DNA from: Patescibacteria group bacterium
GTDB lineage: Bacteria; Patescibacteriota; Gracilibacteria; UBA1369; PNNO01
NCBI GenBank assembly: GCA_042568575.1
Contig: JBHPIO010000012.1
Coordinates: forward strand, 1-36,604
Direction: 5' to 3'
DNA: 36,604 nucleotides
Below, one piece after another: positions 2,304 to 36,147 of this stretch. Each line of letters opens with the position of its first letter. Positions within the stretch are counted from its first letter, which is position 1. The notes beneath the pieces were generated by a model. The model was not told the origin of the DNA. It worked only from the letters and a program-made list of their open reading frames with translations, and did no database searches. Made by a program: the position numbers and the translations under genes.

Positions 2304-2306
2304 TTT

Positions 2307-3257: not shown

Positions 3258-3259
3258 AC

Positions 3260-3288
3260 TTGAAAAAACACGTATTTTCTGATATAAT
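3260..3288 (+). promoter_or_regulatory. sigma70-type promoter for the pilin-PKD gene
   Basis: TTGAAA (3260-3265), 17 nt spacer, TATAAT (3283-3288) with extended -10 TG, 23 nt upstream of ATG 3312. Confidence 0.65.
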
Positions 3289-3311
3289 TAATCAATAAAA
3301 TAAATATAAAT

Positions 3312-7787: not shown

Positions 7788-7799
7788 TCATATAAATTT

Positions 7800-13069: not shown

Positions 13070-13924
13070 CTAGGAAAACCGTTTCCATAATTTATCAGGA
13101 AGTTGGACTATATGCTTTTGCAGTCCAACTTCTTTTGGTGTAAATCCAAGAGCAAGGCAGAGCAATTGGCTCATATGCAAAACAGGCATCTTGAACTTCT
13201 TTTGATACAAGTCCATTTGAGTGTGGCAGAACGGGCAGTTTGTAACAATAAGGTCAGCATTTGACTCTTTAGTGTTACTTAGATATTTTCCACTCATCTT
13301 AGCGGCATCTTTCTTATGAGTAAGAGTGACGTGAAAGCCACAGCAATCAAGTTTTCCATCAACATCAACAGGGATTGCACCAAGTGCTTTAACAAAACTC
13401 TCAAAATTATCAGGATTTTCAGATTCCTGGTGTTGTCCTACAATTTTTGAAGGTCTAAGAATATGGCAGCCATAATACGTGGCCACTTTTAGGCCTGTTA
13501 GTGGGACTTTTACATGTTTCTTGATCTTTTCTAGACCGTAATCTTGAGTAAGCACCCAAAGCCAGTGCTTAATATCCAATTTGGCCTCGCACTTCATGTG
13601 AAAACGCTTAAGATATTGATTCGATTCTTCAAGCTTCTCTTTGTTTTCTTTTAATTCAATTAAATCCTTTCGAAGATTAACAACGCAAGTACTGCAAATA
13701 GTCATTATATCGAGATTTTGCTTTTCACTTAGAGCGAAATTCCGCGCATTTAGAGCAGTATTAAAGTCTTTGTTGGCCTCACGGACAACTCCAGCACCGC
13801 AACAGCTGAACTCCGGGATATCAACCAATTTTATGCCCAGCTTATCGCATGCAAGTCTCGTAGCTTTATCGTATTCGCTTGTAAGTTGTTTGGAAGCGCA
13901 GCCGGGAAAGTAAGCGTATTTCAT
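13070..13924 (-). CDS. CCG-domain (HdrB-like) subunit of an E-type succinate dehydrogenase/fumarate reductase (SdhE-type anchor)
   Basis: YFPGC, SCCGAG, CSTC, YYGC, DCCG and CPFC form two CCG domains. ATGA overlap with the upstream Fe-S subunit. Confidence 0.85.
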   Translation of the reverse strand: MKYAYFPGCASKQLTSEYDKATRLACDKLGIKLVDIPEFSCCGAGVVREANKDFNTALNARNFALSEKQNLDIMTICSTCVVNLRKDLIELKENKEKLEESNQYLKRFHMKCEAKLDIKHWLWVLTQDYGLEKIKKHVKVPLTGLKVATYYGCHILRPSKIVGQHQESENPDNFESFVKALGAIPVDVDGKLDCCGFHVTLTHKKDAAKMSGKYLSNTKESNADLIVTNCPFCHTQMDLYQKKFKMPVLHMSQLLCLALGFTPKEVGLQKHIVQLPDKLWKRFS

Positions 13925-14922
13925 AGATTGTTGAGGTTATCTCTTTCCTTATTTCTCTTTTTTTGTTTTTCATTTTGAGTTCTTTTAACATCTCTTCCAA
14001 GTTCAGCGATCTCTCCATGGTTCTTGATTTTTTTCATGAAGAAAGGAGGCAACTTTCCTTTGAAGAATAATTTGATTGCGGTGGGCAGTTCTTTCATCAC
14101 CCTAATAAATCCAAAAGTACCTACAGGCAGCCATGCTTCAGATAATTCTCCATACTTTTTAACTGATTTCTCAAATGTTCGTGTATGACGCGCCCCATCA
14201 TTATGAATCAGCCCTTCTTTAATGCTTTCTTCGCGAAGCTCAGAAATAACTTCTTGTGGTTCAATATTCATAGGGCAGTTTTCTGTTGAACGTTCACAAT
14301 GAGCACATGCCCAAATTTGCTTATCCACAAGTTTTTTAAGCCGCTCTTTCTTTTTGCCGTCGCGAACATCAAAAATATATCTGTGGGAAAGAACAGACGC
14401 AGCCGGTCCCAAATATTTTCTGTTTGCTTCTCGTGAAGGACAGTCAGAAAAACATGCCGCACACCATATACATTCGCTCGATTTCTCTATTTTATCAGCA
14501 TCTTCTGGAGTAATTCGATTCTCAGCCACGAGTTTTCCTGAATTTTTCTTTGCTTCAATCCACGGATTTGTACCCTTCATTTCATCGTAAAATGTCTCCA
14601 TATCCACAACAAGATCTTTAAGCACGGGCAAATTTCCAAGTGGCTCTATCTTGATTTCTCCAAATTTTAGAACTTCATCGTGCACAGATGCTTTACATGC
14701 AAGCTTTGCTCTGCTGTTTATACGAATTGCACACGAACCACAAATCCCGGCTTTACAAGATTGGCGGAAAGACAAAGTCGCATCGACGTTGTTCCGAATC
14801 GACAATAATGATTCAAGTACCGTTTCCCATGGTTGCACAACAAGTTCATACTCTTCAACGTATGATTCCTTGTCTTTTTTAGGATTAAACCTGCTAATTT
14901 TAAATCTAATCTTTTGGCTCAA
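13921..14922 (-). CDS. sdhB: Succinate dehydrogenase/fumarate reductase iron-sulfur subunit with C-terminal extension
   Basis: SCKAGICGSC..LAC [2Fe-2S] motif, DLVVD, CIWCAACFSDCP, third motif CAHCERSTENCP. TTG start overlaps the end of sdhA. Confidence 0.9.
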   Translation of the reverse strand: MSQKIRFKISRFNPKKDKESYVEEYELVVQPWETVLESLLSIRNNVDATLSFRQSCKAGICGSCAIRINSRAKLACKASVHDEVLKFGEIKIEPLGNLPVLKDLVVDMETFYDEMKGTNPWIEAKKNSGKLVAENRITPEDADKIEKSSECIWCAACFSDCPSREANRKYLGPAASVLSHRYIFDVRDGKKKERLKKLVDKQIWACAHCERSTENCPMNIEPQEVISELREESIKEGLIHNDGARHTRTFEKSVKKYGELSEAWLPVGTFGFIRVMKELPTAIKLFFKGKLPPFFMKKIKNHGEIAELGRDVKRTQNEKQKKRNKERDNLNNL

Positions 14923-16606
14923 TTGGTAGGGGATAACTGGTTATTGTAACGTCTTTGTATGTAACTTTTGGATCATCGTCGCCTTGATAATGTGTAAGGG
15001 AATGCTTATGAAACTTCTTATTATCTTTAAGTGGGAAATCTTTGCGTGCATGAGCCCCTCTGCTTTCTTTTCTTTTTTCAGCGCTCACAAAAAACGCACG
15101 TGAAATATCTAAGAGATTGCGAAGCTCAAGCGCTTCATAAAGCGCATAATTGTAGCAATTCTCGGAGCTTCCAAGCGTAACATTTTCATATTCCTCTCGT
15201 AATTTATATAAACCTTCCAGCCCTTTTGTTAAAGAAGTGTGACTTCTAAATATCCCGGCATTCTCCTCAAGTGTTTTAGTTAGTTCATGTTTGATTTTTG
15301 AATAATGAGTCCCTTTTTCACGTTTCAATAGTGTTTCGATTTCTTTGCTAGTCTCTTTAACAGGACTTTTTTCGATTTTAGATTCTGATTCATTTTGTGC
15401 ATATAAAGATGCAACTTCTCCGGCTCTTTTTCCAAATACAACGGTTTCCATAAGAGAATTCCCGCCAAGCCTGTTAGCTCCATGAAGATTCATACATGAA
15501 CACTCGCCGGCAGCATATAGGCCTTTAACACTTGTTTCGCAATCTTTATTAATGTCGATTCCGCCCATTAGGTAATGTGCCGCGGGACGAACAGGGATAG
15601 CTTCTTTTGTACAATCAATATCGGCAAAATCTTTAACAAGTTTATAAACTTGAGGAAGTCGCTTCTTAATTCTTTCTGCTCCCAAATGGGTGAGATCAAG
15701 TAAAACGGCACCGTGCACACCATGTCCGGAATCTATTTCCTGCTGAATTGCCTGAGCAACAACATCTCTGGATGCAAGCTCCATCTTTTCTGGAGCATAT
15801 CGTTTCATAAAGCGTTCACCTTTATTATTTATAAGATAGCCGTTTTCGCCCCGTGCAGCTTCCGTAACAAGTATGCCTTTGTACGCAAGGCTTGTAGGAT
15901 GAAACTGAATGAATTCGATGTCTTTTAGAGGGACGCCAGCTCTATATGCGATTCCAACTCCATCACCGGTGCTGGAAGTAGCATTCACGGTGTCTTGGAA
16001 TAGGTTTCCAGCCCCTCCGGTAGCAATAACGACTGACTTAGCCTTAATCTCGATTACTTCCGCAGTATGCATATCTAAAGCCAAAATTCCCTTAACTTTG
16101 CCTTCTTCAACTATTAAAGAATGGAAATGCCATTCGCTATGAATCGGGATCTCGTGACGCATCACTTCGGTTAATAGAGTTGAAAGCAGTATGTGCCCAG
16201 TGTAATCACGAGCAAAACAGGTTCGTGGGAACATCCCTCCACCAAATGGACGCTGAGCAATTGTCCCATCTTCATTTCTGCTAAATACCATTCCCATGTG
16301 TTCAAGCTCAATAACACATTCCGGTGCTTGTTCACAAAAGTATTCAACAGCATCTTGATCGTTCAAAAATTCACCACCTTTAACTGTGTCTCGAAAATGA
16401 TGCTCGATAGTATCTTCTCCATCTTCAGGGTGATTGTTTAGGGCGGCGTTCATGCCTCCTTGAGCCATACAGGTCTGACTACGTAAAGGGAAAAGCTTAG
16501 AAACGACTGCGCACGAAACGTTTTTAGTCTTTGCAACTTCAAGTGCGGCACGTAATCCCGTAGCACCACCTCCAATTATCACGACATCGTACGAAAACGT
16601 GCTCAT
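14906..16606 (-). CDS. sdhA: Succinate dehydrogenase/fumarate reductase flavoprotein subunit
   Basis: GGGATG Rossmann motif, AQGG, QFHPT, TEAARGE, ELASRDVV, HYLMGG, HGANRLGGNSL, ESRGAHAR. The likely start is ATG at 16606 (MSTFSYDVVIIGGG), not 16669. Confidence 0.92.
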   Translation of the reverse strand: MSTFSYDVVIIGGGATGLRAALEVAKTKNVSCAVVSKLFPLRSQTCMAQGGMNAALNNHPEDGEDTIEHHFRDTVKGGEFLNDQDAVEYFCEQAPECVIELEHMGMVFSRNEDGTIAQRPFGGGMFPRTCFARDYTGHILLSTLLTEVMRHEIPIHSEWHFHSLIVEEGKVKGILALDMHTAEVIEIKAKSVVIATGGAGNLFQDTVNATSSTGDGVGIAYRAGVPLKDIEFIQFHPTSLAYKGILVTEAARGENGYLINNKGERFMKRYAPEKMELASRDVVAQAIQQEIDSGHGVHGAVLLDLTHLGAERIKKRLPQVYKLVKDFADIDCTKEAIPVRPAAHYLMGGIDINKDCETSVKGLYAAGECSCMNLHGANRLGGNSLMETVVFGKRAGEVASLYAQNESESKIEKSPVKETSKEIETLLKREKGTHYSKIKHELTKTLEENAGIFRSHTSLTKGLEGLYKLREEYENVTLGSSENCYNYALYEALELRNLLDISRAFFVSAEKRKESRGAHARKDFPLKDNKKFHKHSLTHYQGDDDPKVTYKDVTITSYPLPIEPKD

Positions 16607-16673
16607 AAAGTTCGAAACAGTTAATGCGGTTTGCCGTTTTATATTAATGAAAAACCATATATAAAACAAACTT

Positions 16674-18704: not shown

Positions 18705-18779
18705 TGGGGCGTGGCCAAGTGGTAAGGCACCTGGTTTTGGTCCAGGCATTCGGGGGTTCGAGTCCCTCCGCCCCAGCCA
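18705..18779 (+). tRNA. tRNA-Gln(UUG), CCA encoded
   Basis: Acceptor stem TGGGGCG/CGCCCCA, D-arm GCCAAGTGGTAAGGC, anticodon stem CCTGG/CCAGG with TTG at 18737-18739, T-loop GGTTCGAGTCC, 3' GCCA. Confidence 0.97.
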
Positions 18780-18782
18780 TTC

Positions 18783-18882
18783 AGTTCCACTTGCTACGAG
18801 TGAGTCCTTTTTGAGGACTCATCGAGTAGGAAGAGAACTAATCTCGAGCTCGTAAGAGCGAGAGGCGAGCAAGCTTCTTCTA
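18783..18882. repeat. GC-rich nested palindromic (REP/MITE-like or terminator) element downstream of the tRNA
   Basis: Hairpin TGAGTCCT-TTTTG-AGGACTCA (18801-18821), hairpin GCTC-GTAA-GAGC (18848-18859), outer complementarity CTTGCT (18790-18795) / AGCAAG (18868-18873). Confidence 0.55.
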
Positions 18883-18890
18883 TTAATACA

Positions 18891-18920
18891 GCCTCCCAAC
18901 ACAAACAACAGAATTTCTTC
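18891..18920 (+). repeat. Left direct repeat of the oah-had cassette
   Basis: GCCTCCCAACACAAACAACAGAATTTCTTC, 26/30 identical to 21564-21593. Confidence 0.8.
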
Positions 18921-18929
18921 AATTTAAAT

Positions 18930-18979
18930 TTGCCAAATCTGTATTTTCTACTATAGAATTCTGATTGTGTTCTTTGACA
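18930..18979 (+). promoter_or_regulatory. Putative promoter plus boxA-like antitermination motif of oah-had
   Basis: TTGCCA (18930-18935), 18 nt spacer, TAGAAT (18954-18959). TGTTCTTTGACA (18968-18979) matches E. coli rrn boxA TGCTCTTTAACA at 10/12. Confidence 0.45.
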
Positions 18980-19131
18980 TATTTAGTTTTTAGCAGGCAA
19001 TTATTTGTATTCGAATAAATCGGGCAAAATCCAAGACATTCAGGTTTTAGGGCTTTGATCCGGCTTATCGGGTTCAAATGTCCTGCCTGCTATACCAACC
19101 CAACAATGGGAGAAAGCGCAGAGAACAAACA

Positions 19132-20316
19132 ATGCACGAAGACACACTTTTTGCAAAGACCCCTTGGGTCAAGAGAACGGGTGAGTTGGTAGATCATCGG
19201 TTGTTCAGCGATGAATGGCTCAACGGCGAAGCGCCGGGGGTCAACTACGAGCTGAAACCGGTGGTGAATCCGAAGACCGGCGAGGAAATGCCGGACTGCT
19301 ACTACGCCGTGGTGACGCTCAACAACCCTCGGCAGTTCAACAGCTACACGACCGCGATGGTCAAGGGCGTGATCTCGGCGATCACCAACGCGAGTTTGGA
19401 TCGACGGGTGAAGGCCGTGGTGTTTACCGGCACCGGTGACATGGCATTTTGTACCGGCGGTAATACCGAGGAGTACTCTTCTTTCTACGCCCTCAGGCCC
19501 GAGGAGTACATGACCTACATGCAACTCTTCATCATGATGGTGGACTCCATCCTGAACTGCTACAAGCCAGTCATTTGCCGGATCAACGGTATGCGCGTGG
19601 CTGGCGGTCAGGAGATTGGCATGGCGTGCGATTGGTCGTACGCCAGCGACTTGGCCATCATCGGTCAGGCCGGTCCCCGTCACGGTTCTGCAGCAGTGGG
19701 AGGTTCGAGTGACTTCCTCCCGCACATGCTGTCCGCGGAGCTCGCCATGGAAAGCTGCCTCGCTTGCGAGATGTGGAGCGCCTACAAGATGCGTCATCTC
19801 GGACTCATCATGGATGCTTTTCCGGTCTTGCGACGAGGCGATGAATGGATTGTCAACCCGACGGTTATCACCGAGGAGTATGTTCGGGCGGGCAAGGTCG
19901 TACTCGGTGAGCCCAAGACCGGCGATGAGCTGAAGGCTGGCTACGCGCTGATCAAGCAAGCTCGCAACCCCGACGACGACGAGATCGTGATCGACTTCGC
20001 GAGGCTGGACGCTGCGGTAGTTGCCAAGGTCTGGCAACTGACCCATCTGTTCCCGGGCTGTGAGCGGCAGACCTTTATGCAGATCCGTTCGCAGAAAGCT
20101 GCTACGTGGAATCAGCTCAAGCATCTCCACGCGATGTGGCTCGGTCCCAATCAGATGTTCGAAGGCGCTGCCGGTTTCGCGGCCTTTGCCAATCGCAAGG
20201 CCACCGGCAGGGTTGACCAGATCGACTGGGCAGCCCTACATGGTGCCATTTCGCGCGGCGAGATGGTCGATGCAGAGCTGTTCGCGAAGATCCTTCCGCA
20301 TCCGCCCAAGGAGTAG
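19132..20316 (+). CDS. oah: 6-oxocyclohex-1-ene-1-carbonyl-CoA hydrolase (ring-opening, crotonase fold; Oah/BamA/BzdY)
   Basis: Family-specific motifs NNPRQFNSYTTAMVKGV, AFCTGGNTEEY, KPVICRINGMRVAGGQEIG, GQAGPRHGS and CEMWSAYK. Likely start is ATG 19132 (MHEDT..). Confidence 0.93.
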   Translation: MHEDTLFAKTPWVKRTGELVDHRLFSDEWLNGEAPGVNYELKPVVNPKTGEEMPDCYYAVVTLNNPRQFNSYTTAMVKGVISAITNASLDRRVKAVVFTGTGDMAFCTGGNTEEYSSFYALRPEEYMTYMQLFIMMVDSILNCYKPVICRINGMRVAGGQEIGMACDWSYASDLAIIGQAGPRHGSAAVGGSSDFLPHMLSAELAMESCLACEMWSAYKMRHLGLIMDAFPVLRRGDEWIVNPTVITEEYVRAGKVVLGEPKTGDELKAGYALIKQARNPDDDEIVIDFARLDAAVVAKVWQLTHLFPGCERQTFMQIRSQKAATWNQLKHLHAMWLGPNQMFEGAAGFAAFANRKATGRVDQIDWAALHGAISRGEMVDAELFAKILPHPPKE

Positions 20317-20363
20317 TTCAGACAACACCAACCACACAAGTGTGGAGGAAGCGAGACAAACCT

Positions 20364-21470
20364 ATGTCGTTACCCGACGTAATCAACTGTTGGCTTCTAA
20401 CCAAGCCAGGCAACCCTCGAGACGGTACCCCTCCGGAGTTCGAACGCGGAACCCTCCCCATGCCGGAGATCGAAGAAGGCTGGGGCGTGGTTCAGGTGGC
20501 CGGTTGTGGCGTGTGCCACACCGACATCAGCTTTGCCTACATGGGAGTGCCAACGGTCAACGGTCCGCCCAAAGGTTCTCCTCTCGTCCTCGGACATGAG
20601 GTCAGCGGCACGATGGTCGCTGGACCTGAAGACCTGATCGGCAAACAAGTGATCGTGCCCGCGGTTATTCCGTGCCACGACTGTGTGGCCTGCAACAGAG
20701 GACGCGAAAACCTCTGCGTGAATATGCAGATGCCCGGCAACAGTATGGGTCAGTACGGCGGCTTCGCCGACTACATGCCGGTCCCGGTGCACGACCTCTG
20801 TGTGATTGATGATTGCAACGGCATCCCCCTGGAGCATCTGGCTGTTGTGGCTGACGCTGTGACCACCCCTTATCAGGCGGCCATACAGGCCGATGTCATG
20901 CCCGGCGATGGCGTAATCGTGACGGGTCATGCCGGCGGTATCGGCAAACACATGGTGCAAATCTGCAAAGCCCTCGGCGCCAATCACGTCATCGGTTTCG
21001 ATCCGAGTGAGCGTCGAGATGAGATGAAGGAGTTCGGCCTTTCCCATGCCATCGACTCGACCATGGAGGGCGGTTTCAAAGCGGTCAAGGGTGCTTTCAA
21101 GGCCTACTGCAAGGAGCACGGCCTCAATCCCTATTGGGGATGGAAGATCTTCGAGTGCAGCGGTACCGCCGCCGGCCAGAGCCTGGCCTTTGGTTTGCTT
21201 CCGAAGGGTGGCACTCTCATGATCGTGGGTTTCACCCCCGACAAGGTTGAGGTTCGCCTCTCGAACCTGATGGTCTTCGGGGCAAAGGTCGAAGGTGTCT
21301 GGGGCTGCAACCCCGTGCACTATCCCAAGGCGCTTAAGCGAGTGCTGGACGGTTACGTCAAGATCAGCCCCCTCGTTCAAACCCACCCGGTAAGCCAGTT
21401 CCTCGAAGCGCTCGAGGAGGCACACGAAAGCCCTCCCTGGCAGCGCATCGTGCTCACCCCGGACTGGTAG
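20364..21470 (+). CDS. had: 6-hydroxycyclohex-1-ene-1-carbonyl-CoA dehydrogenase (Zn-dependent MDR; Had/BamQ/BzdX)
   Basis: AGCGVCHTD, GHE, structural Zn CHDCVAC..C, MPGN, VVADAVTTPYQA, WKIFECSG, RLSNLM, WGC, and adjacency to oah. Likely start is ATG 20364, with GGAGG at 20344-20348. Confidence 0.92.
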   Translation: MSLPDVINCWLLTKPGNPRDGTPPEFERGTLPMPEIEEGWGVVQVAGCGVCHTDISFAYMGVPTVNGPPKGSPLVLGHEVSGTMVAGPEDLIGKQVIVPAVIPCHDCVACNRGRENLCVNMQMPGNSMGQYGGFADYMPVPVHDLCVIDDCNGIPLEHLAVVADAVTTPYQAAIQADVMPGDGVIVTGHAGGIGKHMVQICKALGANHVIGFDPSERRDEMKEFGLSHAIDSTMEGGFKAVKGAFKAYCKEHGLNPYWGWKIFECSGTAAGQSLAFGLLPKGGTLMIVGFTPDKVEVRLSNLMVFGAKVEGVWGCNPVHYPKALKRVLDGYVKISPLVQTHPVSQFLEALEEAHESPPWQRIVLTPDW

Positions 21471-21520
21471 CACCCCACTACAACTGAATAAAGGGGGAAA
21501 CTAAGGCAGGACAATATTAT

Positions 21521-21555
21521 ACGGGGTAGATGACATCGTTCGTCTCCCCGTTTTT
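21521..21555 (+). terminator. Rho-independent terminator after had
   Basis: ACGGGG-TAGATGA...TCGTCT-CCCCG hairpin followed by TTTTT. Confidence 0.7.
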
Positions 21556-22914
21556 CTAACTAGGCCTCCCAATATAAACAACTGGATTTCTTCTAAGTCT
21601 TGTTCTGTGAACCTTTTGACCTCGTTTTCGTCCTTTCCAACTAATAACTTGTGCGATGCCTCGTTTTTTATCGAGCCATCTCTCAAAAATCATATCGTGA
21701 TTTCCACCCCAATAATTATTCCATCCGTTTCCGTGGATTCGGTCTCCTCTTTGAAGTGTTGTAGCTAATTTGTAAAAAGGGTAATGAACATTTCCACATC
21801 TGCTTCGTTGTGGATCGCCTTTTGGTCTGCGAACCTTTCTGCCGTTTACATATGTATATGCATAGCTGTAGTCGCGATAAACTGTTGCTCTTCTTTTCAC
21901 ACCAGCTAATTTATAAACTCGATTTCCCCAGTCCGTACAATGTCTGGCGTAAATATGGTTCGTTGTGATGTGTCTTGCAACTTGAATAATCCTGTCTTGT
22001 AATGACAATCCTTCTATAGTTTCAAGAAACGTTCGTAGTCTTTCAGGATCCGTAGCAGATCTGATAATAGATTCAACTTTCATACTCACTTTAAAAGGAT
22101 AACTTCTAAGTCGTCTTCGTTTGTGAACTCTCTTTTTTGGCTTTTTGTAAGGCCTTGATGGACTTGATGATAACCCTGGAGTAGCAACTCCAGCCCGTCC
22201 TACAGAAGGCAAAGATGCCATCCTTGGAGATACCCGAGGTTCTGATTCTTCTTGTTTTTTATAAAACTTATATTCCTTTTCTATGTCAGCTTTATCTTTC
22301 TGAAGCAAATAAACACGAGTAGGCGGCTTTGTTGTGAAAGTCGCAATGTATTGTCCGTAAATAGTGTAATATCCGATTTTTTCTCCGTGAACTCCGTCAA
22401 CCACTGGCACTTTTCTTATTCCAACAACCCTTCGCCCATCCGGATAAACCACGAGTACTTTTTTCCATTCAGGAGAAATAATGTGTCCAAGTCCAATTCC
22501 AAATTCCCAATCGTTTCTCATTTTATGTCGTCCGATACCTCTGTAATCCACTGTTCGATACTTGTAATATTTCTGACCTTCATGTTCCAAAGCTTTTGAG
22601 TCTCGCATTTTTCGTGAGAACATAGCAGCCATTGCTTTGTAACTCTGGAAGGCTTTTAACTTCTTACCTTTCCTTTTACGATAAAGACGCTTTGCTCCGC
22701 CACTTTGAATGTCGTGAAGCGTAGCTTTGTCAGCATCTTTCAAATGACTCTCAATAATCTTTTCAGATAGCTGTTTAAGCTCAACCTGCTTGCCAAGAGT
22801 ATTTCTAAGCTTACTTGCTGTCTTTTTAACAGAAGCACGTTTTACAGGGGCAAGCTTTAGATTTTTAAGGACTTCTTTTTTTCGTCCTGGTTTTTCCTTA
22901 TGTTTAAGTGACAT
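21556..22914 (-). CDS. Highly basic hypothetical protein with probable C-terminal NlpC/P60-like (Cys-His) domain
   Basis: K/R-rich. The C-terminal HCTDWGNRVYKLAG ... LQRGDRI ... NHDMIF pattern resembles the papain-like NlpC/P60 layout. Extended -10 TGGTATAAT upstream. Confidence 0.6.
   Translation of the reverse strand: MSLKHKEKPGRKKEVLKNLKLAPVKRASVKKTASKLRNTLGKQVELKQLSEKIIESHLKDADKATLHDIQSGGAKRLYRKRKGKKLKAFQSYKAMAAMFSRKMRDSKALEHEGQKYYKYRTVDYRGIGRHKMRNDWEFGIGLGHIISPEWKKVLVVYPDGRRVVGIRKVPVVDGVHGEKIGYYTIYGQYIATFTTKPPTRVYLLQKDKADIEKEYKFYKKQEESEPRVSPRMASLPSVGRAGVATPGLSSSPSRPYKKPKKRVHKRRRLRSYPFKVSMKVESIIRSATDPERLRTFLETIEGLSLQDRIIQVARHITTNHIYARHCTDWGNRVYKLAGVKRRATVYRDYSYAYTYVNGRKVRRPKGDPQRSRCGNVHYPFYKLATTLQRGDRIHGNGWNNYWGGNHDMIFERWLDKKRGIAQVISWKGRKRGQKVHRTRLRRNPVVYIGRPS
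21564..21593 (+). repeat. Right direct repeat of the oah-had cassette (lies in the last codons of 21556..22914)
   Basis: GCCTCCCAATATAAACAACTGGATTTCTTC, 26/30 identical to 18891-18920. Confidence 0.8.
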
Positions 22915-23014
22915 GTTTTTGTATTAGTTTTCTCTACATTATACCATAAAACACTATTTGTTTCACATAAAAAAACTAACGTGATAAGATTCACTGAGAT
23001 ATAAAATCTCTCTT

Positions 23015-24304
23015 ATGAACTCACCAACTTTAAAACGCGATCTAGGATTATTTCACGCCACTGCAGTAGGAGTTGGTATTATTTTAGGTGCGGGAATTTA
23101 TGTTCTTTTAGGAGCAGCTGCAGGGATTGCCGGTAATTCTGTGTGGGTTTCTTTCTTTCTTGCGGCTCTTGTCGCGCTTTTGACCGGTCTTAGTTATGCA
23201 GAATTATCTTCTATTTATCCAACAGATGCAGCCGAGTACGACTACACAGAGAAAGCTTTTAAAAAGAAGGGACTTGCATTTTTTGTTGCTTATCAGGTGA
23301 TTTTGTCAGCAATAATTTCATCTGCAACTGTTGCAATGGGATTTGCAGGCTATTTTAGTGCTCTCTTTGGAATGAATCACATGATTATTATTTCGATTCT
23401 CGTGATTGTTGTCTTTTCAATAATAAATTTTAGAAGTATTAAGGGGTCAGCTTTAACAAATGTTGTTTGCGCAGCATTAGAAGTTATTGGTCTTTTTGTG
23501 ATTATTTTCCTTGCGATCCCACATATTGGATCTGTTTCTTACACAGAAATGCCACAAGGATTCGATGGAGTTTTAAAGGCTTCGGCATTGGTGTTTTTTG
23601 CATTTCTAGGGTTCGAATCAATCGTAAAACTATCCGAAGAAGTAAAGGATCCAACTAAAAACATTCCACGAGCACTTCTCCTATCACTCCTAATAACAAC
23701 AGTGCTATATATCCTCGTTGCAATCGCAGCCGTAAGCATTCTCGACTGGGAAGCGCTTGGTGCTTCAAAGGCACCACTGGCCGATGTAGCCGCAACTGTT
23801 CTTGGAAACAATGCATTTATTGTGCTCTCAGTAATCGCTCTTTTCTCAACTGCAAATACAGTCTTAATTAGTTTAATTGCAGGCTCCCGCGCACTCTATG
23901 GAATCGGATCTGGATATCGTTTATTAAAACCTTTTACAAAAGTTCATCCAAAAACAAGAACACCTCATTATGCAATTTTTGCAGTAATGATTTTCGCTAT
24001 TCTTTTCTCACTAATAGAAGATATCGGATTTATTGCAGAACTCACAAACTTCACTCTTTTTGTCACATTCGCGATCATCAACCTCGCTGTTATCGTTCTG
24101 CGATACAACGCTCCAAATGAAAAAAGGCCATTCAAAATACCTTTGAATATAGGCAAATTCCCAATTCTTGCCTTACTTGGAATTCTGTCGTGTCTATTCT
24201 TCATCACTCAACTAACAACCACCATAATCCTAGGAGGAGTGGCGCTTTCTGTGGTTGGTTTCGTTATATATGGTGTCTTGAGGTTGGGGGAAAAGCGTGA
24301 TTAA
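23015..24304 (+). CDS. APC-family amino acid permease
   Basis: LKRDLGLF..GIILGAGIY, YAELSS, FFAFLGFE..SEEVKDPTKNIPRA, RTPHYA, RPFKIP; about 12 TM segments. Confidence 0.93.
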   Translation: MNSPTLKRDLGLFHATAVGVGIILGAGIYVLLGAAAGIAGNSVWVSFFLAALVALLTGLSYAELSSIYPTDAAEYDYTEKAFKKKGLAFFVAYQVILSAIISSATVAMGFAGYFSALFGMNHMIIISILVIVVFSIINFRSIKGSALTNVVCAALEVIGLFVIIFLAIPHIGSVSYTEMPQGFDGVLKASALVFFAFLGFESIVKLSEEVKDPTKNIPRALLLSLLITTVLYILVAIAAVSILDWEALGASKAPLADVAATVLGNNAFIVLSVIALFSTANTVLISLIAGSRALYGIGSGYRLLKPFTKVHPKTRTPHYAIFAVMIFAILFSLIEDIGFIAELTNFTLFVTFAIINLAVIVLRYNAPNEKRPFKIPLNIGKFPILALLGILSCLFFITQLTTTIILGGVALSVVGFVIYGVLRLGEKRD

Positions 24305-26478
24305 GAAACACTTCCTTTGGTGAATATCAGTTGTTCGTTAATAGCAAGTTGAGCTGTGATTGCTTTATGTAACTTGTCGTAGAATTTTCTTATCTTTTTA
24401 TACTTAAAAGGTCTGCCCCATGTGCCAGGATTTTTCCATTTTCCATATATTTCTTCTCTTATACGCTTTAGTTGATTAAAAATGCTGTGACACATCATTT
24501 GAAATTCCGTATCGTCCATCGCCGGTACGTCTATCATATGTATACTAGCCCCGAAGTTAGTGTGAATAAGACTTAAATGCTTTGAAACCTCAAGTAATTG
24601 CTTAAAGCGTCCTGCCAGTTCCTCAGGTGCGTCATCAAGATCCGATTCATCCAACTCTCCATAAGGTGATAGAAACGCGCTAGGGGTAACATCTTTTGCT
24701 TTTGGCTTTTTAATTCCTACTGCCTCACAAAGACTAGATGTTTGAGGGAATGAGGGATCTGCATGTAAGTTTTCCATTAAAGTTTCTACCATTGCACTCA
24801 TTAAAGTTCTTTTACCTCCTTCAGATTTAGCTTGGCGTAAAAATTTGTATAATTCATTTAATCCGTGTCGTCTGCCATCATTAGAGTCAAATTGATGCGT
24901 GAATAATGCTCTAACCGCATCTGCTGTTTGAGGGAGTCCTTGTTCAAGTGTTGGGGCAAGAGTCATGTCTTCAACTATAGTTGGTGTTGTGCCTATATTC
25001 TGTGGCTGCGCCGTTCCCGATGCCAAAGCTTCTATTGACGAAGCTGGTGGTCGTAATGCTTTAGCTTCGTCTACTGCTGGGGGTTGAACCGGTGCAGCTG
25101 TTACATTTGCTGCAGGTGGTGGAGCGAGTGCTTGAACTCCAAATGCCATTGTTTGCGTTACACTTTCTGTCCTTGCAGGTTGAACTGGTGGAGTAGCAAC
25201 AGGAGGTGAAGATGGAGGTTTAACTGGCACAGGTGCAGGTTCGGGCTTAGGAGTATTTAGTGCTTGAACTCCAAATGCTATTGTTTGCGTTACACTTTCC
25301 GGCTTCACAGGAGGGGCAGGAGCAGATGGAGGTTGAACTGGTGCAGGTGTTGTCGCTTGTGGAACTGGTTTCTTAGGCAACCTAGAAGGAGGATTATATG
25401 CAGCAACTCCCATAGCTGTCTTTTTTTCTGAAGGTGGCCTAGGTGCTGGAGCACTTGGTTTTTTAGCAGGAGCAGGAGTAACAGGCGCAGGTTTCGATTC
25501 AACAACAGCCGCTGCTTTTCCTGATGTTACAACTTGTTGTACTCCGGTTTCAGCTTCTTCTACTTCACGTTTCTTCAAAGCATCTGTAAATGAAAAAATT
25601 CCTCTTTCTTTGCATTGGGCGAAATCTTCAAGATAAATTAGAACCTCTTCCCATCTTTTAAACAATTCTTCTGGAACAGGTGCTTTTATTCGTCCACCAT
25701 TCCTGCCGAGTAACGCTTTCAACCATAGGCCTTCAATATGCGGATGTGATCCTCTTATTTCTCTTAATTGAGAGCTGAATTGATGCGTTGTTGGAAGATA
25801 CCTTGAAGACATAAATCTAAAAAACGCAGCAATTTCTTTTGCATGCTCATGAGAGCTTTCACCAAAAACTTTTGATGATAAGTGGGTAAAAAACTCTTTC
25901 ATGATTTCGAAATAAACTTCAATATTATCTTCTTCTGCAAGTGCAAGTATTTCAGCATCACTAGCAAGTCGACGAGTTGTGTCTGCTCTTCTATTCTTTC
26001 TATGTTCACTAATTATGAGTAGAAATATTTGCTGCAAGCGTACGTTGCTTTTTAATTGTGGATTATTAATAATGATATTTACTAGATGTGGTCTTCTTCG
26101 TGTTACTTGAGCAAAATTTTCTGCTTGCATCCATGTCCTTATTTGATTTCGCATCCCTCCTTGATCTCTTTCTGCTACAACTGGTAGAGATGGGCATTCG
26201 CAGCTATATGGAGAATAACTATTTGCCTCGTTTTTATACATATCCATATCTCCATAAAGAATTGTTTCAAAAAGTTGCCATGCCATATCTTGTGCATCTT
26301 GATTTTCTCCATCGGGATTAACTTGTTTTGCTAATTTTTCCCAAAGTGCTTTAATTTGCCCTTTAAGAGCATCATCAAGACTTGACGCTTTGTGGAGCGT
26401 TTCTGTTAACTCATGCAGGACAGTATTTATTCGTCCTTCTAATGAGTAATCGACTTGTCTTAGTTTATCTAGTGCCAT
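24301..26478 (-). CDS. Hypothetical protein: helical N- and C-terminal domains joined by a Pro-rich linker
   Basis: 725-aa ORF with a central P/A/T-rich region carrying the duplicated motif ESVTQT(I/M)AFGVQAL. Confidence 0.75.
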   Translation of the reverse strand: MALDKLRQVDYSLEGRINTVLHELTETLHKASSLDDALKGQIKALWEKLAKQVNPDGENQDAQDMAWQLFETILYGDMDMYKNEANSYSPYSCECPSLPVVAERDQGGMRNQIRTWMQAENFAQVTRRRPHLVNIIINNPQLKSNVRLQQIFLLIISEHRKNRRADTTRRLASDAEILALAEEDNIEVYFEIMKEFFTHLSSKVFGESSHEHAKEIAAFFRFMSSRYLPTTHQFSSQLREIRGSHPHIEGLWLKALLGRNGGRIKAPVPEELFKRWEEVLIYLEDFAQCKERGIFSFTDALKKREVEEAETGVQQVVTSGKAAAVVESKPAPVTPAPAKKPSAPAPRPPSEKKTAMGVAAYNPPSRLPKKPVPQATTPAPVQPPSAPAPPVKPESVTQTIAFGVQALNTPKPEPAPVPVKPPSSPPVATPPVQPARTESVTQTMAFGVQALAPPPAANVTAAPVQPPAVDEAKALRPPASSIEALASGTAQPQNIGTTPTIVEDMTLAPTLEQGLPQTADAVRALFTHQFDSNDGRRHGLNELYKFLRQAKSEGGKRTLMSAMVETLMENLHADPSFPQTSSLCEAVGIKKPKAKDVTPSAFLSPYGELDESDLDDAPEELAGRFKQLLEVSKHLSLIHTNFGASIHMIDVPAMDDTEFQMMCHSIFNQLKRIREEIYGKWKNPGTWGRPFKYKKIRKFYDKLHKAITAQLAINEQLIFTKGSVS
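25127..25299. repeat. Intragenic 41-bp direct repeat, 132-nt period
   Basis: AGTGCTTGAACTCCAAATGC(C/T)ATTGTTTGCGTTACACTTTC at 25127-25167 and 25259-25299, 1 mismatch. Confidence 0.85.
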
Positions 26479-26481
26479 ATA

Positions 26482-27849
26482 TTATTTTAAATTTTCTTTA
26501 GGCGGAATTGTACGACAGTTTAAGCCTCCTGTCAAGTGGGCGTATCGACCTTGTAAATGATAGGTCATGGCTTCATTCAACTCTTCGGGTAAATGATCCG
26601 GTTTTCCTGTAGGACGTTCTGGTTTATCTCCAAAAGCAATTCTCGCATAATGTACAAGTTGAGGCATAAAAATTTCATCCCAAGGATTAAGTAAATGCGC
26701 AAAATATTCATCAACTTCTTCTGCTAGATCTTCCGAGGTATGTGTTTTAACACGCGCATATATAGCCTCTCCTTCTTCTCTGATTTTAGTACCATCATCG
26801 CTCATTTTTTCTTTCATATTTCTGCAAAATAAAACAAAATCTCCCCAAATATCTGTGTTTCTAGTTTGTTCCCGGATACTAAATCTTACTTCTATTTCAG
26901 ATACAGCAACCATCAGTGATTGCAATAGTTTGCTTTGTAATTCTCTTAATCTGTCATGAAGTCTGGTGATATTTCCCATTTCAGCATTAATTACTTCAGT
27001 TGCACTTTCCGGGATTTCTAAAAGCTCAAAATTTATCATTGTTTTTGAAGGCGGTTCTGGTATAGGTGTTTTCTCTTCTACCTTAGGTGGATCTTCTTTT
27101 GAGATACCCAATTTTACAAAAAAAGCTCTTGCAACTCTTCTAATACTTCCAATTGATTCAACCTTATCTTCTTCAATGCTTTCCTCAGGAGCTACTTCTG
27201 CATCTGGTTGTTCTTGAAGATCATTAAAACTTCTTTTAAGTTCATCTGGCAATTCTAATCCAAAACTCAGTGTATGAAATAGGGCGTTAATAATTTTGTT
27301 AATGTACTCTAATGATTCCAGATCAAACTGCTTCAATCCATTAAACTTCATATGCATTGAATATAGTTGCATTGCTAATGTGCGTCTAAGATATGGGGAG
27401 TGCGTATGGGGTCCTAAATCACTGAGGATTTCCAGAAAAATTTCGTCGCAGTTTTGATGATCAATTTTCAGTTTTTCATTTCCAAAATGACGAATGAATG
27501 AATTAGCAATCCCAGCAATCGCACTTCTTGATTCTTCTACTGTACGAACTTTCTTCCTATCCCCTGAGATCATTCTTGCTTCTTTTAAAAACCCGACACC
27601 AGTCATAGGCATTTCAACTCCTGGTTGGGTCACTTGCCCTGTTTGTTCAAATATTTCACTAGCTATAAAATCAACTCCGGGTCTCCCAGGAACATCTGTA
27701 TGGATTGTCCCGTCACCAAATAAATCAAGTCCATCAATAGCACCTGGTTCTACTTTTGGGAAAAACCCACTGTCGGGATCACTCGATTTTATTGGAACAT
27801 CTGTTCCAGGAAGTGTAGTGATTAATTTTCTCTCAGCTCTATCTGACAT
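26482..27849 (-). CDS. Hypothetical helical protein, probably co-transcribed with 24301..26478
   Basis: 455-aa ORF, 3 nt from the next gene; no recognised domain. Confidence 0.75.
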   Translation of the reverse strand: MSDRAERKLITTLPGTDVPIKSSDPDSGFFPKVEPGAIDGLDLFGDGTIHTDVPGRPGVDFIASEIFEQTGQVTQPGVEMPMTGVGFLKEARMISGDRKKVRTVEESRSAIAGIANSFIRHFGNEKLKIDHQNCDEIFLEILSDLGPHTHSPYLRRTLAMQLYSMHMKFNGLKQFDLESLEYINKIINALFHTLSFGLELPDELKRSFNDLQEQPDAEVAPEESIEEDKVESIGSIRRVARAFFVKLGISKEDPPKVEEKTPIPEPPSKTMINFELLEIPESATEVINAEMGNITRLHDRLRELQSKLLQSLMVAVSEIEVRFSIREQTRNTDIWGDFVLFCRNMKEKMSDDGTKIREEGEAIYARVKTHTSEDLAEEVDEYFAHLLNPWDEIFMPQLVHYARIAFGDKPERPTGKPDHLPEELNEAMTYHLQGRYAHLTGGLNCRTIPPKENLK

Positions 27850-27871
27850 TTTATGTTATTACGAAGGTGTT

Positions 27872-27899
27872 ATTATAAGATATTTGAGTAAAAAGTCAA
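27872..27899 (-). promoter_or_regulatory. sigma70-type promoter of 26482..27849
   Basis: Minus strand TTGACT (27899-27894), 16 nt spacer, TATAAT (27877-27872). Confidence 0.6.
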
Positions 27900-27947
27900 G
27901 GCTCTGTGCTCCTTTTCAATTTATATAACCAAATCTGGATTTAATCG

Positions 27948-28601
27948 TTACAAATAAAGCTTTGCAGCTGGGCAAATATCTTGTAAATCACATTCGGCAC
28001 ATTTCGGAGTAGGGGCTTTACATAAAGCTCTTCCGTGATCAACGATATAATATGCAAATTGTCCCCAGTCCTTACGTGGATACAACTTCATGAGGTCCTT
28101 CTCAATCTTTTCAGGAATTTTTTCACTAGTTAAACCGAGTCTATTACTAATTCTCTTAACATGAGTATCAACAACAACTCCTTCATTTTTACCAAACCAT
28201 GCGTACAAAAGAACGTTTGCACTTTTTCTCGCTATCCCTGGCAGAGTCACAAGTTCTTCCATCGTATCAGGAACTTTTCCACCAAAATCGGAAAGCACTT
28301 TTTGTGCAGCTCCTTTAATGTTTTTTGCCTTATTCCTATAAAATCCAGTTGAATGGATTGCCCTTTCAAGATCAGCTAAATCACATTCAGCAAAAGCCTT
28401 AACAGTTGGAAATCCTTTAAATAGTGGGGGAGTTACAATATTCACGCGCTTGTCTGTGCATTGTGCGGAAAGCACCGTTGCAACAAGTAGCTCCCATACA
28501 CTCGAATGGATTAACGCACACTTAGCTTTTGGATATATTTTCCCGAGCCTTTTAAATATCACATTTGCACGTTTTTTCTTATTTTCAAATGATTCTCTCA
28601 T
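27948..28601 (-). CDS. nth: Endonuclease III (DNA glycosylase/AP lyase)
   Basis: LLVATVLSAQCTD, HhH motif LPGIARKSANV, VVDTHV, and the 4Fe-4S motif CKAPTPKCAECDLQDIC. Confidence 0.96.
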   Translation of the reverse strand: MRESFENKKKRANVIFKRLGKIYPKAKCALIHSSVWELLVATVLSAQCTDKRVNIVTPPLFKGFPTVKAFAECDLADLERAIHSTGFYRNKAKNIKGAAQKVLSDFGGKVPDTMEELVTLPGIARKSANVLLYAWFGKNEGVVVDTHVKRISNRLGLTSEKIPEKIEKDLMKLYPRKDWGQFAYYIVDHGRALCKAPTPKCAECDLQDICPAAKLYL

Positions 28602-28610
28602 ACTTTTTGA

Positions 28611-29027
28611 TTACTTTTCTCCCATTACCTTAACAATAACACGTTTTTTCCGTTGACCATCAAATTCGGCATAAAAAACCTGCTCCCATGTTCCCAAATC
28701 AAGCTTTCCATTCGTAATCGGCAAAATAACCTGATGACCAATTAGTAAGCGCTTAAGATGTGCATCTCCATTGTCCTCTCCAGTCTGATGATGCTTATAC
28801 GGTTGTCCATAAGGCGCTAACTTCTCAAGCCATTCCTGAATATCAACAATAAGTCCGTTTTCATGATCATTCACATAAACTCCTGCAGTAATATGCATTG
28901 CGGAAACAAGCACCATTCCTTCCTGCACACGGCTTTCCCTCACAATTTCTTCAACCTCAGGTGTTATATGAATAGTGTCGTATCTGTTTTTTGTATTAAA
29001 TTGAAGATATTCTGTGTGAGCATGCAT
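28611..29027 (-). CDS. yjbQ: YjbQ/UPF0047 family protein
   Basis: [35 protein letters not shown]. Confidence 0.92.
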
Positions 29028-29091
29028 ATTTAAAAGCGATTAGAGAGTTATAAAAACATCTCTAATTTACATCGAAAATTGATAAAAGTCA

Positions 29092-34927: not shown

Positions 34928-34959
34928 AATGGGGTGAGTGCTTACCCTTTGTTCGAACT
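34928..34959 (+). repeat. 32-bp direct repeat, copy 1
   Basis: AATGGGGTGAGTGCTTACCCTTTGTTCGAACT, 30/32 identical to 36116-36147. Confidence 0.85.
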
Positions 34960-34962
34960 ATC

Positions 34963-36045
34963 TTAAGCCAACTCTAATAATGCGCAGAGCATCTTATGAA
35001 GTTTTTTTAGATCTTTAACGCTTACATATTCGTCAATTATATGAGCTTGCTTAACACTTCCTGCCCCAAGAACTGCTCCGCGTATTCTATATTTGTAGAT
35101 TTCACTAAATTCTGTTGTATAGTTGACACCTCTCGATTGGTGTTTCAATCCTTCGTTTTTTAAAATGTCTTGTAGGAGTTTTATAAAAGGCGTTTTAGAA
35201 GGTAGGTCAACTGGATTATGCGTATGTCTCACCTCTACTTTAGATGGGGCAACCACCTTTTTTATCTGCTTAATGATTTTACTACTATCCTGGTTTGGCA
35301 AGGTTCTAATATCAATTTCGATTTCAGCTGAATCTGGTATCACATTGTATCCAATCCCTCCCTTGATTACGCCAATATTAAGAGTAGGATTTCCTAAAAG
35401 CTTATGCTTCTTTTTTATGAATGTTTTTATGTATTTTTGGAGCTTATTTATAGAATGATTTAATTTTTGAATAGCATTTTCTCCTTCTTCAGGTGTTGAT
35501 GCGTGGGCTGCCTTTCCTTTAGCTTTAATCATTAAATATTGTTGTCCTTTATGGGCTGTAACTAATCTTAATTCTGTCGGTTCAAAATTTAGACAGTATT
35601 TTATGTGTTTTAGCTTTGTTCTTCGCATTTTCATAACCTCTTTAATTCCAGCAAAGGTATTTTCTTCTCCTACAGTAAAAGAACAACTTATTTTCTTTGT
35701 GGGATTTTTTGCCAAAGCAGCCAGTATACAAGCTCCGTTTCCTTTTGTATCACAGCTACCTCTACCATAGAGCCTTCCATTTTTAATTTGACCATATGGA
35801 TTTACGCTCCAATCTTTTTTTTCTCCGATAGGAACTGTATCAATATGACTATTAAGTAAAATTTCTCCTTCTCCAATTACAACTACATTGAATCTGTTTT
35901 TTTCGATCTTTTGCTTCTGAACAGCGAGGCCTAGAGTCTTCAAATATTTAAAAATGAATTCGGCCACTTCTTTCTCGTTTCCGCTTTCAGAGGATATACT
36001 AACAAGTTTTTTAGCAAGCTTAACTGGATCGGTTATTATTTTCAT
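34963..36045 (-). CDS. M20-family metallohydrolase (ArgE/DapE-like)
   Basis: NSHIDTVP, LYGRGSCDTKG, GEE, EPT, GKAAHAS, AHIIDEYV. Confidence 0.9.
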   Translation of the reverse strand: MKIITDPVKLAKKLVSISSESGNEKEVAEFIFKYLKTLGLAVQKQKIEKNRFNVVVIGEGEILLNSHIDTVPIGEKKDWSVNPYGQIKNGRLYGRGSCDTKGNGACILAALAKNPTKKISCSFTVGEENTFAGIKEVMKMRRTKLKHIKYCLNFEPTELRLVTAHKGQQYLMIKAKGKAAHASTPEEGENAIQKLNHSINKLQKYIKTFIKKKHKLLGNPTLNIGVIKGGIGYNVIPDSAEIEIDIRTLPNQDSSKIIKQIKKVVAPSKVEVRHTHNPVDLPSKTPFIKLLQDILKNEGLKHQSRGVNYTTEFSEIYKYRIRGAVLGAGSVKQAHIIDEYVSVKDLKKLHKMLCALLELA

Positions 36046-36115
36046 TGCTTAAGGCCTATAATATTCTTGAATCACTATACCACAAGTCCAAATATAGCTC
36101 AAACAAGCCAATTAC

Positions 36116-36147
36116 AATGAGGTGAGTGTTTACCCTTTGTTCGAACT
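36116..36147 (+). repeat. 32-bp direct repeat, copy 2
   Basis: AATGAGGTGAGTGTTTACCCTTTGTTCGAACT. Confidence 0.85.

What the first reader, a model, noticed from the sequence alone, without database searches (positions are those of the whole stretch)
18879..21593. 30-bp direct repeat brackets the oah-had cassette and duplicates the 3' end of the neighbouring gene
Seen: 18891-18920 and 21564-21593 match at 26/30. The right copy encodes the C-terminus of the 452-aa gene (..RNPVVYIGRPS*). The left copy, read on the same strand and frame, gives RNSVVCVGRLY** with two tandem stops, which looks like a displaced gene tail. Inference: the 2.7 kb unit integrated at the 3' end of this protein-coding gene, not the adjacent tRNA, and supplied a replacement tail and terminator, as attL/attR-type integration does. 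No integrase or transposase lies inside, so the unit is either a trans-mobilised mini-island or the product of microhomology-mediated capture. Four mismatches suggest the event is not very recent. The repeat also argues against a simple misassembly.
Basis: partly seen in the sequence, partly recalled or inferred. Interest (0 to 1): 0.75.

Follow-up and report, generated by a model that had tools for sequence, protein, structure and literature searches.

The report
Insertion scar around foreign enzyme pair
A tiny symbiotic-type bacterium carries two foreign genes for breaking down aromatic compounds, framed by a short duplicated piece of the neighbouring gene; the duplication is a real scar of insertion, but the neighbour kept its own ending and no dedicated integration machinery is visible.

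Summary
The repeat is real: 18891-18920 and 21564-21593 match at 26/30, occur only twice in the window, and frame a 2.64-kb unit whose oah and had genes have GC3 0.75/0.72 against 0.18-0.37 for 26 host genes. The host looks like a Patescibacteria (CPR) member. So the gene kept its ancestral tail and the left copy is a decayed duplicate; at most the last codon and stop are new. No recombinase, transposase, tRNA duplication or abutting inverted repeat was found. A second, unrelated 32-bp repeat frames an ArgE/DapE-family gene 13 kb away. Best reading: one insertion that duplicated about 30 bp of target, enzyme unknown; an e14/icd-type att site is the main rival. The empty site could not be tested (no genome with the flanking gene found). 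The odder part is the cargo: intact Oah and Had on very long branches (51-59% and 49-54% to their nearest relatives), with their own promoter, 105-nt hairpin and shared leaders.

The parts
18705..18779 (+). tRNA-Gln(TTG); outside the unit, not duplicated
   Evidence: ARAGORN; Rfam; no second copy of its 3' end
18783..18880 (.). Host hairpin cluster after the tRNA; would have been the convergent junction with the 452-aa gene before the insertion (inferred)
   Evidence: folds at z -3.7 (+) and -3.4 (-), 0 of 200 shuffles as good
18891..18920 (-). Left repeat: decayed, non-coding duplicate of the last ten codons of the 452-aa gene
   Evidence: 26/30 to right copy; carries non-family residues; in-frame stop just before it
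18930..18959 (+). Sigma-70-like promoter candidate of the unit (10 of 12 consensus matches), in AT-rich DNA
   Evidence: 8 such sites found vs mean 4.7 in shuffles, so a candidate only; GC 0.25-0.28
18992..19096 (+). 105-nt imperfect hairpin in the presumed 5' leader; more stable on the transcribed strand (40 pairs, 7 G-U, -39.1 vs -27.3 kcal/mol)
   Evidence: z -4.6, 0 of 200 shuffles; strand comparison; no Rfam family
19094..19131 (+). Leader of oah: small hairpin, GGAG placed far from the start, A/C-rich spacer; resembles the had leader
   Evidence: alignment with had leader reached by 1 of 1000 shuffles; spacing
19132..20316 (+). [quoted passage not shown]
   Evidence: TIGR03200 430 bits, cut-off 464; Atlas feature score 0.98, TM 0.92; 51-59% to 119 best relatives
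20327..20363 (+). Leader of had, same design as the oah leader
20364..21470 (+). had/bamQ-like 6-hydroxycyclohex-1-ene-1-carbonyl-CoA dehydrogenase, 368 aa, intact, long-branch
   Evidence: TIGR03201 370 bits, cut-off 339; 49-54% to 119 best relatives
21521..21555 (+). Hairpin followed by a T-run: likely terminator of oah-had, abutting the stop of the 452-aa gene
   Evidence: fold of 21471-21570, 2 of 200 shuffles as good on +, 30 of 200 on -; not listed by the terminator scan
21564..21593 (-). Right repeat: coding, ancestral-state 3' end of the 452-aa gene
21556..22914 (-). 452-aa basic protein with a C-terminal CHAP/NlpC-P60-like domain; rare family, host-like codon use; the insertion target
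   Evidence: no Pfam/NCBIfam hit; Atlas look-alikes CHAP/NlpC (lead only: low-confidence model, TM 0.46-0.58); 3 close relatives, 71 distant hits; GC3 0.28
34928..36147 (.). Possible second case: 32-bp direct repeat (30/32; 34928-34959 and 36116-36147) around an ArgE/DapE-family gene (34963-36045, minus strand)
   Evidence: unrelated in sequence to the first repeat; gene has host-like codon use

Best explanation
A 2.64-kb foreign expression unit (promoter, long leader hairpin, oah, had, terminator) was inserted in one event at the convergent junction between tRNA-Gln and the 452-aa gene, and about 30 bp of the target were duplicated in the process. The copy that stayed in the gene kept the ancestral residues under selection; the spare copy decayed neutrally. 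The insertion most likely did not use a dedicated, conserved att site: I favour a sequence-independent, target-duplicating route (repair of a staggered break or template switch capturing taken-up DNA, or a long-duplication transposase encoded elsewhere). Shown: repeat, foreignness, which copy is ancestral, absence of mobility genes in the scanned ORFs. Inferred: single event, order of events, enzyme. The immediate donor was probably a GC-rich, fast-evolving or unsampled lineage rather than a typical benzoate degrader (inferred from the long branches). The two enzymes would convert 6-hydroxycyclohex-1-ene-1-carbonyl-CoA to 3-hydroxypimelyl-CoA if supplied with substrate; alone they do not make a benzoate pathway.
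For: Repeat beyond chance and at both edges of the GC island. GC at four-fold sites 0.72/0.70 vs 0.20 for the host pool; host-codon score -0.66/-0.64 vs +0.01 to +0.30 for 23 other genes. Right copy matches the family, left does not; difference pattern fits neutral decay. Decay of the left copy and the still-high GC are compatible: implied starting GC4 0.84, range 0.73 to above 1. Target is a rare gene: 3 relatives among 5290 candidates, none in GTDB genomes, a poor choice for a conserved att site (my reasoning). The two best real junction repeats among 756 junction comparisons are this pair and the ArgE pair, both about 30 bp, both at convergent 3' ends, with no shared sequence. Patescibacteria carry many islands and are described as naturally competent (PMC12455944, passages and part of section 7).
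Against: No empty site was seen, so single-event insertion is inferred only. The ArgE gene has host-like codon use and its repeat is a hairpin just after two stop codons, so it may be a duplicated terminator and no second insertion. Homology-facilitated illegitimate recombination as described (PMC3240628, abstract) is not said to duplicate the target, and from my own knowledge it usually replaces DNA. A 30-bp duplication of a gene end is also exactly what att-type integration leaves. With four differences the neutral-decay test is weak (P=0.11-0.31 for working alleles). Only 36.6 kb of the genome could be examined.
Confidence: 0.5

Rival explanations
1. e14/icd-type site-specific integration: a circle carrying a copy of the gene's 3' end integrated by a recombinase that has since been deleted or acts in trans; the repeats are attL/attR cores and one has decayed.
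For: Direct repeat that keeps a gene end intact, as with icd/icdC around e14 (PMC13626634, passages). The family's commonest last residue Val (28/59) is encoded out of frame in the left flank while today's gene ends Ser (2/59). A relative carries a truncated recombinase ORF running into the same tRNA-Gln (L002:9992-10906; Pfam zinc-ribbon recombinase E 2e-5, just under its cut-off), so the group has such enzymes.
Against: No recombinase family among the scanned ORFs. icd/icdC differ mostly by synonymous or conservative changes, here 3 of 4 change the residue, two to residues absent or nearly absent from the family. Target gene is rare. The adjacent tRNA, a proven target in L002, was not used. 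Extension past the 30-mer is not significant.
Confidence: 0.3
2. The left copy is a leftover of a separate local rearrangement (partial duplication, inversion or loss of a paralog), and oah-had arrived independently between it and the gene.
For: The neighbourhood is rearranged relative to relatives: UPF0047 (L003) or M23 (L001) lies just upstream of tRNA-Gln on the same strand there, but 10 kb away on the opposite strand here. The left copy overlaps a 19/20 inverted match to the start of the UPF0047 gene (28996-29015; 1 of 200 shuffles).
Against: Needs two events at one spot; no longer remnant of the gene is detectable beside the left copy (profile search and anchored extension); a paralog tail would keep family residues; intergenic control queries reach scores of 33-34 against 35 for the UPF0047 match.
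Confidence: 0.15
3. Chance similarity or a chimeric assembly that placed a GC-rich organism's genes in this contig.
For: Oah, Had and the 452-aa protein are each known from this one contig only; no reads could be checked.
Against: Expectation 5e-7 at the junctions; longest exact match 9 bp, too short to mislead an assembler (my knowledge); AT-rich promoter and graded GC at both edges; both enzymes are unlike ordinary degraders'.
Confidence: 0.05

Closest known systems
E. coli e14 prophage at icd with the icdC C-terminal fragment (PMC13626634, passages read)
   Same: Foreign DNA flanked by an intact gene end and a spare copy of that gene end.
   Different: e14 is 15 kb, excises, and targets a housekeeping gene; icd/icdC differ mostly synonymously. 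Here 2.6 kb, no recombinase found, 30-bp copy with mostly amino-acid-changing differences, rare target gene.
IS1549/IS1634 insertions with long variable direct repeats, 8-514 bp (PMC2266710, passages read)
   Same: Target duplication of this length with no fixed target sequence.
   Different: No DDE transposase and no inverted repeats abutting the direct repeats (best 8 of 14); a 10-bp inverted repeat lies 158 and 49 bp inside.
Genomic islands and single transferred genes of groundwater Patescibacteria (PMC12455944, passages and part 1 of section 7)
   Same: Horizontally gained DNA in a CPR genome; paper reports most transfers are between Patescibacteria.
   Different: The word 'aromatic' and the terms 'direct repeat' and 'integrase' do not occur in its main text; cargo here is two benzoyl-CoA pathway enzymes.
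Oah/BamA/BzdY and Had/BamQ of the anaerobic benzoyl-CoA pathway (PMC1924859, PMC3794298, passages read)
   Same: Best family for both proteins; two consecutive steps; crotonase and zinc-dehydrogenase core motifs kept.
   Different: No dch or reductase in the window; Thauera vs Geobacter identities are 76% (Oah) and 70% (Had) in PMC1924859, whereas these reach only 59% and 54% to anything found; 21 of 149 and 20 of 119 near-invariant columns are changed.

Membership tests
att-type island at a protein gene 3' end (e14/icd kind) | Direct repeat duplicating the gene's 3' end at both boundaries | tested here: met
att-type island at a protein gene 3' end (e14/icd kind) | Site-specific recombinase in or beside the element | tested here: not met
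   0 of 28 ORFs (Pfam), 0 of 14 (PHROGs); rest of the genome not available
att-type island at a protein gene 3' end (e14/icd kind) | Distal copy is the displaced working allele (synonymous or conservative differences) | tested here: not met
   3 of 4 differences non-synonymous; Ser444 0/59, Leu451 0/59 family rows; later decay could hide it
att-type island at a protein gene 3' end (e14/icd kind) | Empty site in relatives or excised circle | not testable with these tools
   no GTDB genome with the flanking gene; 3 of 3 tRNA-anchored loci lack it; no reads
tRNA-targeted genomic island | Copy of the tRNA 3' end at the far boundary | tested here: not met
   no exact 12-16-mer and no >=14/20 copy elsewhere in the window
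IS1549/IS1634-type insertion with long direct repeats | Direct repeat within 8-514 bp | tested here: met
   30 bp; range from PMC2266710
IS1549/IS1634-type insertion with long direct repeats | Terminal inverted repeats abutting the direct repeats | tested here: not met
   best 8 of 14 over all offsets tried
IS1549/IS1634-type insertion with long direct repeats | DDE transposase | tested here: not met
   (window only)
Integron gene cassette | attC hairpin with R boxes after the gene, integrase nearby | tested here: inconclusive
   105-nt hairpin exists but lies before the genes; R-box motifs (recalled, checked by eye) not at its ends; no Rfam match; no integrase; no attC model was run
Oah equivalog TIGR03200 | Score above curated cut-off 464 | tested here: not met
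   430 bits, full length, next family 96 bits; works-like claim supported
Had equivalog TIGR03201 | Score above curated cut-off 339 | tested here: met
   370 bits
Benzoyl-CoA pathway gene cluster | dch and ring reductase genes present | tested here: not met
   none among the window's scanned ORFs; rest of genome unknown

The most novel reading that the evidence does not exclude
This Patescibacteria lineage gains genes by an integrase-free route that duplicates about 30 bp at convergent gene ends (two cases in 36 kb), and oah-had is a CPR-domesticated module: reshaped enzymes, its own structured leader RNA and matching translation leaders, passed between Patescibacteria and used on ring-cleavage intermediates drawn from a benzoate-degrading host cell.
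Probability: 0.12. Interest if true: 0.75.

Novelty: new member of a known kind. Interest (0 to 1): 0.4.

Why it matters
Small foreign islets framed by short direct repeats are a known kind, so the repeat itself is of moderate interest; its value is that it shows the oah-had pair to be a true insertion in a CPR chromosome and gives its edges. The cargo matters more: two consecutive anaerobic ring-cleavage enzymes, intact but far from all sampled relatives, in a group thought to lack such metabolism. Two searches of the held library (listings of 20 of 43 and 15 of 25 papers, plus passages of PMC10766756, where oah/had belong to a Desulfotomaculales bin) showed no report of oah/had in Patescibacteria; subscription journals are not covered. 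If the genes are expressed they would point to the host (an aromatic degrader) and to metabolite exchange, and they caution against reading every bamA/oah hit as a benzoate degrader.

Tried and rejected
Empty-site search: GTDB scan with the 452-aa family alignment found 110 pattern matches, 0 confirmed; a tRNA-Gln-anchored scan gave 3 loci, none with the 452-aa gene or oah-had (L001 ends at the tRNA, so its downstream side is unseen). Unit DNA against plasmids and phages (blastn) and Oah protein against both (tblastn at E 1e-40 and 1e-20): no match. Longer repeat including the stop codons: seen in a gapped alignment, rejected as not significant. Longer gene remnant beside the left copy: no profile hit. 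Dispersed repeat: rejected within the window and the three loci (one 21/30 match in L003, treated as chance); rest of genome unknown. tRNA as target, IS-type ends, integron cassette, riboswitch or other Rfam family: not met. Split UPF0047 gene in L003: a scaffold gap of Ns, no real duplication. Hairpins after the tRNA show no convincing likeness to those in L002/L003. No solved Oah structure; nearest are MenB naphthoate synthases. One paper search returned nothing relevant. No structure or complex prediction was run.
Full report
Observation. The two 30-mers match at 26 positions, spaced 2673 bp, and no third copy at >=20/30 lies on either strand of the window. None of 1000 shuffles of the left junction region reached 26/30 against the right one (best 23), and 12 whole-window shuffles gave at best 23-24; the analytic expectation is 5e-7 at the junctions and 0.004 window-wide. 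A gapped alignment seemed to carry the match through the stop codons, but anchored tests did not support this (158 and 781 of 1000 shuffles as good). The repeat is therefore about 30 bp and ends one base into the penultimate codon. The longest exact match is 9 bp.

Host. The window encodes multi-pilin and PKD proteins, an S-layer-homology protein, an M23 peptidase and L27. A pattern built on its tRNA-Gln matched 3 GTDB loci, all 3 titled Patescibacteria or Candidatus Peribacteria, at 74/75 or 76/77 bases; L003 and L001 share UPF0047 (69%), PKD (44%) and M23 (36%) homologs. Most host genes lack a Shine-Dalgarno signal near the start. I infer a Patescibacteria (CPR) host of the Peribacteria/Peregrinibacteria side; no marker tree was made.

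The unit. Between the repeats lie a promoter candidate (18930-18959), a 105-nt hairpin (z -4.6; more stable on the transcribed strand; no Rfam family), oah, had and a hairpin with a T-run on the + strand. oah and had have GC3 0.75 and 0.72 against 0.18-0.37 for the 26 other ORFs measured, and four-fold GC 0.72 and 0.70 against 0.20. Their leaders resemble each other (1 of 1000 shuffles). Had passes TIGR03201; Oah is full-length on TIGR03200 but scores 430 against a cut-off of 464, while the Atlas places it with Oah clusters by features and structure. Each protein is known from this contig only, and the best hits are 51-58% (Oah) and 48-53% (Had) identical; both searches scored only the 8000 candidates sharing most words and listed 120. 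In alignments with the 119 best relatives, those relatives are a median 69% and 67% identical to each other, the window's proteins sit on terminal branches of 1.00 and 0.77 (next longest 0.26 and 0.33), and they change 21 of 149 and 20 of 119 near-invariant columns (relatives: median 0 and 1, at most 7 and 8). This set is biased towards similar sequences and the tree is unrooted, so acceleration and an unsampled deep lineage are not told apart. That divergence is far more than could accrue since the insertion, so it predates it (inference).

The target gene. The 452-aa protein has no Pfam or NCBIfam match; its C-terminal part resembles CHAP/NlpC-P60 proteins in the Atlas (a lead). It has 3 close relatives (78, 72, 57%) and 71 profile hits in the representative library. 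The close relatives end GRPVG, GRAV and GRPLR. Of 73 relatives given, 58 (59 rows; one protein aligned twice) cover the last strand; 15 without residues there were left out. Pro444 is in 54/59 and Ser in none; Ile448 in 53/59 and Val in 3; Tyr447 in 10 and Cys in 1; Pro451 in 46 and Leu in none. Three of four differences are non-synonymous, the neutral expectation (23 of 30 sites; P=0.77), less likely for two working alleles (P=0.11-0.31). Against my reading: the commonest last residue is Val (28/59; Ser 2/59), and the left flank has a Val codon one base out of frame, so the last codon and stop may have been replaced. Which copy is 'original' DNA cannot be told if both were identical at insertion.

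Mechanism. No recombinase or transposase family was found in 28 ORFs or 14 ORFs; the tRNA end is not duplicated and no inverted repeats abut the direct repeats. In an all-against-all comparison of 28 gene junctions (756 comparisons), leaving aside one self-overlap of the tRNA, the two best matches are a 30/32 repeat around an ArgE/DapE-family gene and this repeat. They share no sequence. The ArgE gene has host-like codons, so that case is uncertain. A rare, lineage-limited target and two unrelated ~30-bp duplications at convergent ends tilt me to a sequence-independent, target-duplicating insertion (0.5) over an e14/icd-type att site (0.3). For the latter: the e14 arrangement (PMC13626634, passages) is the same in outline, and L002 has a truncated recombinase ORF running into tRNA-Gln. 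IS1549 and IS1634 are reported to make 8-514-bp duplications (PMC2266710, passages), which shows that this length needs no att site. Patescibacteria are described as competent and island-rich (PMC12455944, passages and part 1 of 2 of section 7). Age: three strong/weak changes in the left copy imply a starting four-fold GC near 0.84 for the cargo (0.73 to above 1), so moderate age and high GC are compatible.

What stayed open. No empty site: the family scan of GTDB confirmed 0 of 110 pattern matches and 0 of 3 tRNA-anchored loci carry the gene or the unit (L001 ends at the tRNA). In L003 and L001 UPF0047 or M23 lies just upstream of tRNA-Gln, whereas here they are 10 kb away on the other strand, so the region is rearranged. 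No match in plasmid or phage collections. Metagenome and viral contigs, reads and the rest of the genome were not available.

Function. Had and Oah are consecutive steps leading to 3-hydroxypimelyl-CoA (PMC1924859 and PMC3794298, passages). Without dch and a reductase in the window they are no pathway; intact frames and kept core motifs suggest selection, perhaps on intermediates from a host or on a shifted substrate (inference, untested). Searches (listings only, plus passages of PMC10766756) showed no report of these genes in Patescibacteria.

Verdict. A real insertion scar around a foreign two-gene unit: a new member of a known kind. The replacement-tail reading is not supported beyond, possibly, one codon. 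Interest 0.4, carried mainly by the cargo and the possible second case.

Noticed in passing
window 34928-34959 and 36116-36147: 32-bp direct repeat (30/32) with a small hairpin, each copy just after a stop codon, framing an ArgE/DapE-family gene; only two copies in the window. Second insertion scar or duplicated terminator.
   Followed up: partly
window 13070-16669: sdhA-sdhB-sdhE/hdrB-like operon (succinate dehydrogenase/fumarate reductase with CCG-domain anchor), unusual for a CPR genome by my recall; codon use at the low end of the host range.
   Followed up: no
window 18908-18927 vs 28996-29015: The only inverted 19/20 match in the window links the left repeat to the start of the UPF0047 gene and agrees with the left copy at two of its four differences; 1 of 200 shuffles, but intergenic controls score nearly as high. 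Unexplained, possibly chance.
   Followed up: partly
window 19079-19088 and 21505-21514: 10-bp perfect inverted repeat between the leader hairpin and the region after had (0 of 500 shuffles, noticed post hoc); could pair the two ends of the transcript.
   Followed up: partly
window 18992-19096: 105-nt G-U-rich hairpin ahead of oah, no Rfam family; possible regulatory leader RNA.
   Followed up: partly
L002:9992-10906 and upstream of L002:10001: Truncated serine-recombinase-like ORF reading into tRNA-Gln on the opposite strand, and a small ORF ending at the tRNA's 5' side that looks like a GIY-YIG nuclease (by eye, recalled).
   Followed up: partly
window 18705-30606 vs L001, L003: M23 and UPF0047 sit directly upstream of tRNA-Gln in relatives but 10 kb away and inverted here.
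   Followed up: partly
window 25127-25349: 132-bp-spaced coding repeats in the Pro/Ala-rich middle of the 725-aa orphan protein.
   Followed up: no
window 1149-10244: Cluster of multi-copy T4SS-pilin-domain and PKD-repeat genes.
   Followed up: no
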